Below, in pieces: positions 7,913-10,900 of a DNA stretch of 64,000 nucleotides; the stretch's first letter is position 1, and each line of letters opens with the position of its first letter. Origin of the DNA: Escherichia coli (GTDB taxonomy: Bacteria > Pseudomonadota > Gammaproteobacteria > Enterobacterales > Enterobacteriaceae); assembly GCF_044324875.1 (NCBI RefSeq), contig NZ_CP172185.1; one strand, 5' to 3'. Position numbers: made by a program.

Positions 7913-10900
7913 TTAATTCGTAAAACGTGCTACCGATCACATTAAGAAATCAGCGCTTATTTTTTCGCTCCCGGGCATTAAGCAATGAGCAGCGAACTCA
8001 GGCATACATCAAGCATAGAGAGGGATTGCAGTTTGCAGCAATCCCTCTTTGCAGACCTTTAATCCGCTGACCATAGGCGCTAACATAGCGCCTCATTTTT
8101 TTGCGGGTGATGATATGCGTGTGTTACTGGCACCGATGGAGGGTGTACTCGACTCTCTGGTGCGTGAATTGCTGACCGAAGTTAACGACTACGATCTGTG
8201 CATCACCGAGTTTGTCCGCGTGGTGGATCAACTGCTGCCAATAAAAGTCTTTCATCGCATTTGCCCTGAGCTACAAAATGCCAGCCGGACACCTTCCGGT
8301 ACGCTGGTGCGCGTGCAGTTGTTAGGTCAGTTCCCACAATGGCTGGCAGAGAATGCCGCCCGTGCGGTCGAGTTAGGTTCCTGGGGCGTGGATCTCAATT
8401 GCGGCTGCCCGTCGAAAACGGTTAACGGTAGCGGCGGTGGGGCGACGTTACTCAAAGATCCCGAACTCATCTACCAGGGTGCAAAAGCGATGCGTGAAGC
8501 TGTACCGGCGCATTTGCCCGTCAGCGTGAAAGTGCGTCTGGGATGGGACAGCGGTGAGAAGAAATTTGAAATCGCCGATGCGGTTCAACAGGCTGGTGCT
8601 ACAGAGCTGGTGGTGCATGGGCGGACGAAAGAGCAGGGTTACCGCGCGGAGCATATTGACTGGCAGGCGATTGGCGAGATTCGCCAGCGGCTGAATATTC
8701 CGGTGATTGCCAACGGTGAAATCTGGGACTGGCAGAGTGCGCAACAATGCATGACGATCAGCGGATGCGACGCAGTGATGATTGGTCGCGGGGCGCTCAA
8801 TATTCCCAACCTGAGCCGGGTGGTAAAATATAACGAACCGCGAATGCCGTGGCCGGAGGTAGTTGCTTTGCTGCAAAAATATACCCGTCTGGAAAAGCAG
8901 GGCGATACCGGGTTATATCACGTTGCGCGGATTAAACAGTGGTTGAGTTATTTGCGTAAAGAATACGATGAAGCAACGGAATTATTTCAGCATGTTCGGG
9001 TGTTGAATAATTCCCCTGATATTACAAGGGCTATTCAGGCAATTGATATCGAGAAACTCTAAAAAACCATAGTGATGTTTTTTGACAATGTGTTAGCTCT
9101 TTATCAATAGGCCGCACGGTTGTTTGGTGGCGTCAAAATCGCCGAGGCGTTCCCCGAAGGCCGGGGCAGCCCACATGGATGTGGGCTGAGGGCGCGTTTT
9201 ACAGGGATGTTACCTCGCGCCCGACCCGGTAGCCGTAAGGGATAAGCCGAGGGCACCGCGCAGCGGCGATTTTGTTCGCCAGAGCCCGGGGGTGCAGGGG
9301 GCGGCGGCGATTGGTCGCCCCCTGCGCGCTCCTTGCGCCAGTGATTATATGAAGCAATGCACATGACAGGAGCGCAACAGGATGAGAGACTGAAATATTC
9401 TCGTTATTTTCGGATCTGATGACATTAATTAATTTTAAAATATCATCTTAAATACACCAGTCACCACCAGTAGCCCAATCAGGAAAATAATCAATACGGC
9501 CCAGAGTATAATTTTCATTGGCGTTCCTTTATTTGTGAGTGCTGAATAAGTATAGGAAAAAACGAAGCCCTTTGCCGTTATCCATAAACTATTAAGATAA
9601 ATCAGAAGATATCATTCACTTAGTGTATATTTTTCTGGATATGTCGTTTTATTGCCACTGATGTATTGCCACGCGAAACTAAAAAATATATCGCAACACA
9701 CGGTAATCTCCGCGCACCTTTTCTTACCTGATTATTCCCCCATGAATCGTGATTCTTTTTATCCAGCCATCGCCTGTTTTCCGCTGTTACTGATGCTGGC
9801 CGGGTGTGCGCCTATGCATGAAACCCGCCAGGCGTTAAGCCAGCAAACGCCCGCTTCACAAGTTGACACCGCATTACCCACGGCGCTGAAAAATGGTTGG
9901 CCAGACAGCCAATGGTGGCTGGAGTATCACGATAATCAACTCACTTCATTAATTAACAATGCACTACAGAACGCACCGGATATGCAGGTGGCTGAACAGC
10001 GCATTCAGCTGGCTGAAGCCCAGGCGAAGGCAGTTGCCACTCAGGATGGTCCGCAGATCGACTTTTCTGCGGATATGGAGCGGCAAAAAATGTCGGCAGA
10101 AGGGTTAATGGGGCCGTTTGCTCTGAACGATCCGGCCGCAGGTACGACCGGTCCGTGGTACACCAACGGTACTTTTGGCTTAACGGCGGGCTGGCATCTC
10201 GATATCTGGGGAAAGAATCGGGCGGAGGTAACTGCTCGCCTGGGTACGGTTAAAGCACGAGCGGCGGAACGCGAGCAAACCCGCCAATTGCTGGCTTGCA
10301 GCGTAGCCCGCCTGTACTGGGAGTGGCAAACCCAGGCGGCGTTAAACACTGTCTTACAGCAAATCGAAAAAGAGCAGAACACCATTATCGCCACCGATCG
10401 CCAGCTATATCAGAACGGGATTACTTCTTCAGTTGAAGGTGTGGAAACCGATATTAATGCCAGCAAAACCCGGCAGCAGCTCAACGATGTCGCGGGGAAA
10501 ATGAAAATTATTGAGGCACGGTTAAATGCACTCACAAATCACCAGACAAAGTCATTGAAGCTTAAATCGGTCGCATTGCCGAAAGTGGCAAGCCAGCTTC
10601 CTGATGAACTGGGGTACTCCTTACTGGCGCGGCGGGCAGATTTGCAGGCGGCGCACTGGTACGTTGAGTCATCGCTAAGCACCATTGATGCGGCAAAAGC
10701 GGCATTTTATCCTGACATCAACCTGATGGCCTTCCTGCAACAGGATGCGTTGCACTTAAGCGATCTGTTCCGTCATTCCGCGCAGCAAATGGGCGTTACG
10801 GCAGGCCTGACGCTACCCATTTTCGATAGTGGTCGTCTTAACGCCAACCTCGATATCGCAAAAGCCGAAAGCAACTTGTCTATCGCCAGCTACAACAAAG

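What the first reader, a model, noticed from the sequence alone, without database searches (positions are those of the whole stretch)
9104..9364. GC-rich multi-hairpin element between dusC and yohP
A ~260-bp segment of markedly high GC content contains at least two perfect 10-bp-stem hairpins and has no credible ORF. It could be a repeat-family element (BoxC/RIP-like) or a structured RNA.
Basis: seen in the sequence. Interest (0 to 1): 0.25.

Follow-up and report, generated by a model that had tools for sequence, protein, structure and literature searches.

The report
Known replication risk sequence RRS-dusC
The GC-rich multi-hairpin block after dusC is the already published E. coli "replication risk sequence" (RRS-dusC), a folded DNA repeat that makes the replication machinery leave a single-stranded gap; new here, it shares its fold with a predicted RNA motif (TwoAYGGAY) and sits in either orientation in different wild strains.

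Summary
Window 9104-9364 is 61-70% GC against about 35% in the flanks and holds two perfect 10-bp-stem hairpins. Its only ORF, an 86-aa ORF on the minus strand, is not conserved.

It is not an unknown element. It is RRS-dusC, the Replication Risk Sequence of Pham et al. (NAR 2023, NAR 2024; preprint 2026), listed as TRIP1 by Rudd in 1999. The published 20-nt G-quadruplex motif lies at 9288-9307 (+). The partner copy lies upstream of lysO.

The published mechanism: the G-rich strand folds when it is the lagging-strand template, blocks the polymerase and leaves a post-replication gap.

My analysis found three things that the RRS papers held here do not mention:
- **Conserved fold.** The roughly 260-nt fold shows strong covariation on the G-rich strand: 27 of 61 pairs are compensatory, and G-U pairs outnumber A-C by 62 to 7.
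- **TwoAYGGAY relation.** The 5' domain is a relative of Rfam TwoAYGGAY that scores below Rfam's threshold. It carries two CsrA-type GGA loops, and a Kluyvera copy passes Rfam's cut-off.
- **Natural inversion.** At dusC 3409 genomes have the window's orientation and 2002 the opposite. At lysO the split is 908 versus 4119. O157:H7 has both copies inverted relative to K-12.

Verdict: already known, with modest added interest.

The parts
9114..9385 (+). Whole conserved unit (RRS-dusC with its 3' stem). G-rich strand = + strand = dusC sense strand.
   Evidence: 93.8% identity over 272 nt to the K-12 lysO copy and 98.9% to the K-12 dusC copy. The block that is inverted in other strains is 9124-9394.
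9125..9285 (+). 5' domain: a long irregular stem (P1-P3) closing a junction with two hairpins. TwoAYGGAY-like.
   Evidence: Model R1 scores 183.8 bits. Rfam RF01731 aligns full length over 9123-9281 at 28.5 bits, E 0.036, below the gathering score of 43. Covariation.
9167..9188 (+). Hairpin 1: perfect 10-bp stem, loop ACAUGGAUGU with GGA at 9177-9179.
   Evidence: I4. Five to eight of its nine pairs show compensatory changes. The loop matches the CsrA SELEX consensus RUACARGGAUGU (literature).
9190..9222 (+). Hairpin 2: GGGCGCG...CGCGCCC, loop UUACAGGGAUGUUAC with GGA at 9205-9207.
   Evidence: GGA is kept in this loop in all full-length family members aligned.
9288..9307 (+). Published RRS G-quadruplex motif GGGGGTGCAGGGGGCGGCGG.
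   Evidence: Exact match, once, + strand only. Motif as printed in PMC11194060.
9294..9325 (+). Hairpin P5: perfect 10-bp stem GCAGGGGGCG/CGCCCCCUGC. Its 5' arm overlaps the G4 motif.
   Evidence: I5. Compensatory variants, e.g. GGGGGAGGA/UCCUCCCCC.
9326..9378 (+). Stem P6 (GCGCUCCU 9326-9333 with AGGAGCGC 9368-9375) plus the conserved AAC tail.
   Evidence: I9. The same stem is made from other sequences in other genera: GUUCGC/GCGAAC in Atlantibacter and Citrobacter.
9104..9364 (-). 86-aa ORF with exactly the finding's coordinates. Judged not a gene.
   Evidence: No Pfam family. Frame and start codon not conserved among copies.
9059..9123 (.). Allele-specific inner flank on the dusC side. It includes an AT-rich box upstream of the element.
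   Evidence: Not shared with strains that carry the inverted element. Weak upstream similarity among copies.
9395..9432 (.). Allele-specific inner flank on the yohP side.
8115..9062 (+). dusC, the flanking gene that names the element. No terminator-like site is predicted between its stop codon and the element.
9435..9518 (-). yohP, the convergent flanking gene.

Best explanation
This is RRS-dusC, one of the two 'Replication Risk Sequences' of E. coli. It was listed as TRIP1 by Rudd in 1999 and characterised by Pham, Cox, Goodman and colleagues in 2023-2026. Shown in the literature for K-12: when the fork unwinds the region, the G-rich strand folds into a very stable structure of hairpins plus a G-quadruplex around GGGGGTGCAGGGGGCGGCGG. 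When that strand is the lagging-strand template it blocks the polymerase. An Okazaki fragment is left unfinished, and a gap of up to about 2 kb forms and is coated by SSB and RecA. [quoted passage not shown] Shown here: the window copy has the K-12 orientation relative to dusC, with the G-rich strand as the dusC sense strand. The fold of the G-rich strand is itself under selection across Enterobacteriaceae, seen as compensatory changes in nearly every stem and as G-U/G-T pairs tolerated on that strand only. Inferred: in this genome the G-rich strand is the lagging-strand template, as in K-12.
For: Identity:
- The position is directly after dusC.
- The published 20-nt G4 motif matches exactly at 9288-9307 + (against the paper).
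- A second copy lies upstream of lysO.
- A partial third copy lies at efeU-putP in an E. coli record. This may correspond to the 'triple' that gave TRIP1 its name.
- In K-12 the motif is on the - strand at 2.229 Mb and on the + strand at 0.915 Mb. That is the published inverted pair, roughly symmetric about the terminus.

Mechanism, from the literature: PMC10287960, PMC11194060, PMC13308219.

Conserved fold:
- On the MAFFT alignment A4, 97.3% of cells are paired. 27 of 61 pairs are compensatory, against 16.0 +/- 2.1 in shuffles (0 of 500 reach it) and 3-10 when partners are slid.
- On the wider alignment A6, 35 of 49 pairs are compensatory.
- G-U pairs number 62 and A-C pairs 7.
- Relaxed two-G G4 motifs number 5-16 on the G-rich strand and 0-1 on the other strand across the family.
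Against: - The lagging-strand rule is not kept in nature. 2002 of 5426 genomes have the dusC copy inverted and 908 have the lysO copy inverted.
- The O157:H7 lineage has both copies inverted.
- The alx-sstT copy, present in 1660 genomes, has its G-rich strand on the alx strand. From K-12 coordinates that should be the leading-strand template.
- In K-12, engineered inversions abolished the RecA/SSB peaks.
- The invariant GGA loops and the kinship with TwoAYGGAY are not explained by the need for a stable fold alone.
- The gap mechanism itself could not be tested with these tools.
Confidence: 0.85

Rival explanations
1. The element, or part of the family, acts as a structured RNA of the TwoAYGGAY class. 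It would be transcribed from the G-rich strand and would present two CsrA-type GGA hairpins to a CsrA dimer, as a decoy or as a CsrA-controlled RNA. Orientation in the chromosome would then matter little.
For: - RF01731 aligns full length to 9123-9281 (28.5 bits, E 0.036).
- A model built only from RRS-type copies finds, at 74.8 bits, a full-length copy in Kluyvera (L058 97-256 -). The core of that copy passes Rfam's cut-off for TwoAYGGAY, 47.4 against 43.
- That Kluyvera copy has the same P5 and P6 stems and the same AAC tail.
- Both apical loops keep GGA in all full-length members aligned. Hairpin 2 reads UUACAGGGAUGU, against the CsrA SELEX consensus RUACARGGAUGU.
- TwoAYGGAY was proposed as a CsrA binder in PMC4333381.
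- G-U pairs outnumber A-C pairs 62 to 7.
- Natural orientation flips are easier to tolerate for a self-contained RNA gene.
- ANGGAN-containing tandem repeats follow the element in some genera.
Against: - There is no evidence of transcription.
- No sigma-70-like promoter or intrinsic terminator is predicted around the element.
- The published CsrA CLIP-seq gene table lists dusC and ybjE as not bound. It may not have scored unannotated, multi-mapping intergenic reads.
- A 3'-end mapping supplement had no entry for the locus.
- TwoAYGGAY itself has never been shown to be an RNA.
- G-T pairs are also tolerated in folded DNA, so the strand asymmetry does not separate RNA from single-stranded DNA.
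- The window copy fails Rfam's gathering score.
Confidence: 0.2
2. It is a proliferating selfish repeat, MITE-like or spread by gene conversion. Its fold would serve only its own spread, and the replication gaps would be a side effect.
For: - Copy number varies from 1 to 9 per E. coli genome. One Klebsiella pneumoniae chromosome has 13 places.
- Tandem and head-to-head arrays occur in Klebsiella, Atlantibacter and Mangrovibacter.
- Copies are sequence mosaics that do not group by locus.
- Whole intergenic regions are replaced rather than cleanly interrupted.
Against: - No terminal inverted repeats, no target-site duplication and no clean empty site were found.
- No associated transposase or reverse transcriptase was seen, and neighbouring genes differ at every locus.
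- There are no phage hits, and the 'plasmid' hits examined are chromosome fragments.
- The dusC locus is occupied in about 5411 of 5426 genomes, which is unlike a drifting parasite.
- Published work reports conditional essentiality.
Confidence: 0.1
3. It encodes the 86-aa protein read on the minus strand at 9104-9364.
For: The ORF exists and is open in many copies. RefSeq calls a 'hypothetical protein' over the alx-sstT copy in a few genomes.
Against: GC-rich DNA lacks stop codons by chance. The frame shifts between copies and the ATG is not conserved. There is no Pfam family. Substitutions follow base-pairing rather than codon structure.
Confidence: 0.01

Closest known systems
RRS, Replication Risk Sequences of E. 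coli (Pham et al. NAR 2023 PMC10287960; NAR 2024 PMC11194060; preprint PMC13308219); TRIP1 of Rudd 1999
   Same: It is the same element: RRS-dusC. It has the same locus, the same 20-nt G4 motif, the same GC-rich repeat and the same partner at lysO.
   Different: The published unit is 222 bp. The conserved structural unit found here runs about 260-270 nt, through stem P6 and an AAC tail. The papers describe one native orientation, whereas complete genomes show both orientations at both loci. As far as they could be searched here, the papers do not mention covariation, TwoAYGGAY or GGA loops.
TwoAYGGAY RNA motif (Rfam RF01731; Weinberg et al. 2010, PMC2864571)
   Same: Both have a long closing stem, two adjacent hairpins with GGA-containing apical loops joined by a purine-rich linker, and several copies per genome. 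A Kluyvera family member passes Rfam's cut-off.
   Different: The window copy scores 28.5 bits against a gathering score of 43. The loop of hairpin 2 is AGGGAU rather than AYGGAY. The enterobacterial elements carry an extra G-rich 3' domain (P5, P6). TwoAYGGAY is a prediction with no tested function.
CsrB/CsrC/RsmY/RsmZ CsrA-sequestering sRNAs (Rfam lists TwoAYGGAY under clan CL00106)
   Same: Both have GGA motifs presented in hairpin loops that match the CsrA consensus. The 28-nt spacing between the two GGA motifs could suit a CsrA dimer (my own knowledge, not checked here).
   Different: There are only two conserved sites rather than 9-22. No recognisable promoter or terminator is present. 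No evidence of expression or CsrA binding exists.
Neisseria gonorrhoeae pilE G-quadruplex
   Same: It is the only other bacterial sequence cited by the RRS authors as triggering a programmed gap through a G4.
   Different: It is a short G4 that serves pilin antigenic variation. It is not a 260-nt multi-hairpin repeat.
REP/BIME, BoxC and RIP intergenic repeats of E. coli
   Same: They are GC-rich, intergenic, hairpin-forming and repeated.
   Different: From my knowledge of these families, they are 35-60-bp units present in tens to hundreds of copies, with other consensus sequences. This element is about 270 bp and has 2-9 copies. K-12 carries a different GC-rich repeat, which I read as BoxC-like, at the alx-sstT site where other strains carry an RRS copy.

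Membership tests
RRS (Replication Risk Sequence) | GC-rich repeat of about 222 bp lying next to dusC (RRS-dusC) | tested here: met
   The window is 98.9% identical to the K-12 dusC-yohP intergenic region.
RRS (Replication Risk Sequence) | Contains the G4-forming sequence 5'-GGGGGTGCAGGGGGCGGCGG-3' on one strand only | tested here: met
   Exact match at 9288-9307 +, none on the other strand. Motif text.
RRS (Replication Risk Sequence) | Near-identical partner copy upstream of lysO, inverted on the chromosome | tested here: met
   Shown in K-12: 94.1% over 272 nt, on opposite strands. The lysO locus lies outside the window, so the window's own genome was not checked.
RRS (Replication Risk Sequence) | G4 strand is the lagging-strand template | tested here: inconclusive
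   The window has the K-12 orientation relative to dusC, so this is inferred to hold. The window holds no ori or ter landmark. The rule is not kept in 2002 genomes at dusC and 908 at lysO.
RRS (Replication Risk Sequence) | Triggers post-replication single-stranded gaps with SSB and RecA loading | not testable with these tools
   Literature only.
TwoAYGGAY RNA motif (RF01731) | Score at or above Rfam's gathering score (43 bits) | tested here: not met
   28.5 bits, E 0.036, full-length alignment. A related copy in Kluyvera scores 47.4.
TwoAYGGAY RNA motif (RF01731) | Two adjacent hairpins whose terminal loops carry AYGGAY | tested here: inconclusive
   Hairpin 1 has AUGGAU, which fits. Hairpin 2 has AGGGAU, with a purine at the Y position. 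One Psychromonas copy in the original TwoAYGGAY alignment also has CAGGGA.
TwoAYGGAY RNA motif (RF01731) | Long P1 stem closing the two-hairpin junction | tested here: met
   Helices 1-6.
TwoAYGGAY RNA motif (RF01731) | Is an RNA (transcribed) | not testable with these tools
   No expression data were reachable. No promoter or terminator was predicted.
CsrA-sequestering sRNA (CsrB/RsmZ type) | Many GGA motifs in loops, own promoter and terminator, CsrA binding | tested here: not met
   Only two conserved GGA loops. No promoter or terminator. dusC and ybjE are not CLIP-seq targets in the published gene table. Binding itself could not be tested.
MITE / IS-derived element | Terminal inverted repeats and target-site duplication; clean empty sites | tested here: not met
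   Unit of about 270 bp, median 3 places per genome. No repeat feature is annotated at this site in K-12 RefSeq. The family definitions come from my own knowledge.

The most novel reading that the evidence does not exclude
RRS elements and the TwoAYGGAY 'RNA' motif are one family. What evolution conserves is a roughly 260-nt fold of the G-rich strand with two CsrA-type GGA loops, and it is kept whichever way the element faces the replication fork. There are two possible consequences. Either RRS elements also act as a CsrA-binding (or other protein-binding) RNA or single-stranded DNA, so the GGA loops are functional. Or the TwoAYGGAY motifs of gut Clostridia and gamma-proteobacteria are not RNAs at all but DNA-level gap-forming elements like RRS.
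Probability: 0.3. Interest if true: 0.7.

Novelty: already known. Interest (0 to 1): 0.35.

Why it matters
The element itself is published, so the finding adds no new kind of system. Two results here bear on the open question of what RRS elements are selected for.

First, covariation shows that a specific fold is conserved, not only GC-richness or a G4. That fold links RRS to an orphan Rfam motif predicted to bind CsrA. This gives a concrete test: mutate the GGA loops while keeping the fold and the G4.

Second, complete genomes contain natural versions of the inversion strains built in K-12. About 37% are inverted at dusC and 17% at lysO, and both copies are inverted in O157:H7. The claim that the G4 must be on the lagging-strand template can therefore be tested directly by ssGap-seq in wild strains.

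Tried and rejected
- **Other Rfam families.** Only chance-level matches appeared: AgvB, snoRNAs, miRNAs.
- **Phage origin.** No match in 50,697 phage records.
- **Plasmid carriage.** All the 'plasmid' hits examined are chromosome fragments filed as plasmids.
- **MITE or IS reading.** No terminal repeats, target duplication or clean empty site. At alx-sstT and at both dimorphic loci the whole inner intergenic region differs between alleles.
- **Invertible switch (fim-like phase variation).** Rejected, because the two orientations differ by about 10% in sequence and have different inner flanks, so they are old alleles.
- **Differential loss from an ancestral head-to-head pair.** Such pairs exist in other genera, but no remnant of a second copy was found at the E. 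coli loci. This is left open.
- **Small ORF downstream of the SD-like AGGAG.** The peptides are 3-35 aa, are not conserved, and are absent in Klebsiella and Enterobacter.
- **Promoter and terminator scans.** Nothing supportive.
- **Expression evidence.** The TSS paper is not held. The 3'-end mapping supplement has no entry for the locus. The YohP paper says nothing about the region.
- **CsrA CLIP-seq tables.** dusC and ybjE are listed as not bound.
- **Full-text search for element k-mers.** No paper found.
- **Searches for old repeat names.** The search for RSA, BoxC and IRU gave nothing. The search on Rudd's repeat names found the RRS paper.
- **AaHKsRNA22 hit in Entomohabitans.** It overlaps only a weak, unconvincing hit of my model and was set aside.
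Full report
**1. The observation**

The window is E. coli. dusC ends at 9062 (+) and yohP lies at 9435-9518 (-). Between them GC rises to 0.61-0.70 over 9100-9349, against 0.31-0.44 on both sides.

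The two perfect 10-bp-stem hairpins are real: 9167-9176/9179-9188 and 9294-9303/9316-9325. A 16-nt long-range pairing, 9134-9149/9259-9274, also exists. The + strand of 9100-9390 folds at -146.7 kcal/mol (z = -5.6; 0 of 200 shuffles as stable). The - strand folds at -129.1 (z = -4.3).

The finding's coordinates are exactly those of an 86-aa ORF on the minus strand. That ORF has no Pfam family. Its frame and start codon change from copy to copy. It is a by-product of GC-rich sequence.

**2. It is a repeat, and it has a name**

The segment is found in 5425 of 5426 complete E. coli genomes. The median is 3 places per genome and the maximum 8-9, and nothing is annotated under the match.

- The other main sites are aqpZ-lysO and alx-sstT (1660 genomes).
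- A partial copy lies at efeU-putP.
- K-12 RefSeq annotates nothing between yohP and dusC.

A literature search on Rudd's repeat names led to Pham et al., NAR 2024 (PMC11194060). [quoted passage not shown] They are named Replication Risk Sequences (RRS) and were first listed as TRIP1 in 1999.

The paper prints the G4-forming sequence 5'-GGGGGTGCAGGGGGCGGCGG-3'. It occurs once in the window, at 9288-9307 on the + strand. In K-12 it is on the - strand in the dusC-yohP gap and on the + strand in the lysO-aqpZ gap. The two K-12 copies are 94.1% identical over 272 nt. The finding is therefore RRS-dusC.

**3. Published mechanism (literature, not tested here)**

- ssGap-seq found RecA and SSB peaks on the lagging strand next to both RRS, and deleting an RRS removes its peak (PMC10287960).
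[quoted passage not shown] - Both RRS can be deleted only with an accompanying amplification or when replaced by inverted copies.
- Engineered inverted copies gave no RecA or SSB peak and changed supercoiling in a way that resembled the double deletion (PMC11194060).
- A 2026 preprint reports that gaps form at nearly every encounter in the native orientation, and at about 66% when the C-rich strand is the lagging-strand template.
- The authors propose a role as topological relief valves flanking the Ter domain.

**4. What the sequence comparison adds: a conserved fold**

*How the copies were collected.* An exact 19-mer from the element retrieved copies from these taxa:
- Escherichia albertii, E. 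whittamii and unnamed Escherichia species
- Klebsiella, Raoultella, Enterobacter and Kluyvera
- Citrobacter, Atlantibacter and Mangrovibacter
- a gut Enterobacteriaceae genome

Invariance of 9256-9274 in these copies is therefore by construction.

*Covariation.* On a plain MAFFT alignment of 30 copies (A4), the RNAalifold structure has 97.3% of cells paired. 27 of its 61 pairs have changes on both sides, against 16.0 +/- 2.1 in shuffles (0 of 500 reach it) and 3-10 when partners are slid by 1-3 columns.

A covariance model of the 5' domain (R1) found up to 51 matches in the held loci, 45 of them at E <= 1e-5. On that model-fitted alignment, 35 of 49 pairs are compensatory. Such an alignment leans towards the structure it was fitted to.

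*Architecture.*
- A long irregular stem closes a junction with two hairpins (9125-9285).
- The G-rich hairpin P5 follows (9294-9325).
- Stem P6 follows (9326-9333 with 9368-9375), then a conserved AAC.
- P6 is rebuilt from unrelated sequence in other genera: GCGCUCC/GGAGCGC becomes GUUCGC/GCGAAC.

So the conserved unit is about 260-270 nt, longer than the published 222 bp.

*Which strand folds.* G-U pairs outnumber A-C pairs 62 to 7, so the G-rich strand is the one whose fold is kept. This fits either single-stranded DNA on the G-rich strand or an RNA copied from it. It cannot tell the two apart.

*G4 potential.* Two-G-run G4 potential is also strand-asymmetric across the family, 5-16 motifs against 0-1. 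The published G4 tract is at the same time the 5' arm of a covarying hairpin.

**5. Link to TwoAYGGAY and CsrA**

- Rfam's only notable hit is a full-length alignment of 9123-9281 to TwoAYGGAY (RF01731): 28.5 bits, E 0.036, below the gathering score of 43.
- In Kluyvera ascorbata, L058 153-216 (-) passes the cut-off, 47.4 bits.
- My model, built only from RRS-type copies, covers that site as a full-length copy at 74.8 bits (L058 97-256 -). That copy continues into the same P5, P6 and AAC tail.
- Intermediate copies occur in Mangrovibacter, at 46-55 bits.

The RRS family and TwoAYGGAY are therefore related, although the window copy itself fails the formal threshold.

Both apical loops keep GGA in every full-length member aligned. 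Hairpin 2 reads UUACAGGGAUGU and hairpin 1 reads ACAUGGAUGU. The CsrA SELEX consensus is RUACARGGAUGU. Gardner and Eldai (PMC4333381) had proposed TwoAYGGAY as a CsrA binder on this basis. The RRS papers that could be searched here mention none of CsrA, TwoAYGGAY or covariation.

**6. Natural orientation dimorphism**

Junction queries count complete genomes in which one match covers at least 80% of a 221-241-nt junction.

| Locus | Window/K-12 state | Count | Opposite state | Count |
|---|---|---|---|---|
| dusC | 5' end towards dusC (as in the window and K-12) | 3409 | inverted | 2002 |
| lysO | K-12 orientation | 4119 | inverted | 908 |

- The inverted block is window 9124-9394. The inner flanks (9059-9123 and 9395-9432) are not shared, and the two forms are only 89-91% identical. 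These are old alleles, not phase variation.
- The O157:H7 lineage carries the inverted form at dusC (O157:H7 and O55:H7 strains) and at lysO (O157:H7 strains). Strain E69 also carries both inverted forms.
- By inclusion-exclusion, at least 695 genomes combine an inverted dusC copy with a K-12-type lysO copy.
- The alx-sstT copy has its G-rich strand on the alx strand. alx is on the + strand at 3.239 Mb in K-12. By the same reasoning that puts the dusC copy's G4 on the lagging template, this one should be on the leading-strand template. That is an inference and assumes conserved synteny.

**7. Arrangement in other genera**

- Head-to-head pairs with 55-280 nt between the 5' ends recur in Atlantibacter, Mangrovibacter, Kluyvera and the gut genome. 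In Mangrovibacter phragmitis they form tandem arrays of about 660 bp.
- Klebsiella has tandem copies, and one chromosome has 13 places.
- Such a pair always puts one G-rich strand on the lagging template whichever way the fork comes. That fits the DNA model. It is also what a divergently transcribed gene pair would look like.
- Some copies are followed by short tandem repeats that repeat the 3' arm of P6, such as CGAACGGAACAAUUCCAC.

**8. Weighing the readings**

Identity as RRS-dusC is essentially certain. For function, the only experimental evidence is the published DNA-level gap mechanism, and I adopt it.

It leaves three things unexplained: the invariant GGA loops, the kinship with TwoAYGGAY, and the frequent natural inversions. 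Engineered inversions in K-12 removed the gap signal, which makes the natural ones harder to explain.

The RNA/CsrA reading explains those three points. It has no expression evidence, no predicted promoter or terminator and no CLIP-seq support. I give it about 0.2. A purely selfish repeat is unlikely given near-universal occupancy of the dusC locus and the absence of transposon hallmarks. A protein-coding reading is excluded.

**9. Limits**

- No transcriptome, CLIP or replication data could be analysed directly.
- The family sample is biased by the exact-word search used to collect it.
- The junction counts rest on megablast coverage thresholds.
- The replication polarity of copies outside K-12 is inferred from gene orientation.

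**10. Verdict**

The element is already known as RRS-dusC. The covariation, the TwoAYGGAY link and the orientation dimorphism are additions worth passing to specialists, but they do not change the classification.

Noticed in passing
window 9352-9412 (-): Sub-threshold Rfam match to AgvB, the anti-GcvB sRNA (22.9 bits against a gathering score of 56, E 0.07). It overlaps the 3' stem of the element on the opposite strand and is probably chance.
   Followed up: no
window 9419-9446 (+): The only sigma-70-like site in 8950-9650 (ATGACA, 16-nt spacer, TATCAT; 10 of 12 matches). It points into the 3' end of yohP in antisense. The number of such sites is no higher than in shuffles.
   Followed up: no
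window 9652-11178 (+): mdtQ reads as an intact 508-aa ORF here, whereas it is annotated as a pseudogene in K-12 MG1655.
   Followed up: no
window 9040-9062, compared with L003 and L004: The last codons of dusC differ between the two orientation alleles. One ends ...IEKL* and the other ...IDKLR*, with several synonymous differences. The allelic divergence therefore reaches into the gene end.
   Followed up: partly
L010 350-800 and L011 350-725 (alx-sstT of K-12 and ST131): Where some strains carry an RRS copy, K-12 carries a different GC-rich repeat that I read as BoxC-like (CCCTCTCCC...GGGAGAGGG). ST131 lacks one 75-bp unit of it.
   Followed up: no
L032 about 6500-6560, L044 about 1700-1810, L045, L052 about 370-470: In Atlantibacter and Citrobacter the element is followed by 2-6 tandem 18-nt units, CGAACGGAAC(A/C)(A/C)TTCCAC. 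These repeat the 3' arm of stem P6 and each contains GGA. Mangrovibacter has units of about 27 nt, and Raoultella and Enterobacter units of about 70 nt.
   Followed up: partly
L026 1-1400 (Mangrovibacter phragmitis): A block of about 660 bp, made of a head-to-head pair of two diverged element types, is itself repeated in tandem.
   Followed up: partly
L049 5585-5849 (Escherichia sp. MOD1-EC7003, dusC locus): This copy lacks hairpin 1 entirely, through a 26-nt deletion, but is otherwise intact. It is a natural one-loop mutant.
   Followed up: no
L018 1-127 (-) and 433-593 (+) (MAG labelled 'Proteobacteria bacterium'): An E. coli-like contig with two element copies about 300 nt apart, head to head. 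The dusC 3' end between them appears truncated. This may be a real paired arrangement or a chimeric assembly.
   Followed up: no
PLSDB records such as NZ_CP148399.1, NZ_CP041417.1, CP125156.1: Several records filed as plasmids carry ordinary chromosomal gene neighbourhoods (aqpZ-lysO-hcp, efeUOB-putP) or are whole 5-Mb chromosomes. They look like mislabelled chromosome pieces.
   Followed up: partly
L043 5551-5646 (+) (Entomohabitans teleogrylli): An above-threshold Rfam match to AaHKsRNA22 (47.8 bits against 39.8) overlaps a weak hit of my model (23.8 bits) and lies next to the 19-mer used for the scan. The relation to the element is unclear.
   Followed up: partly
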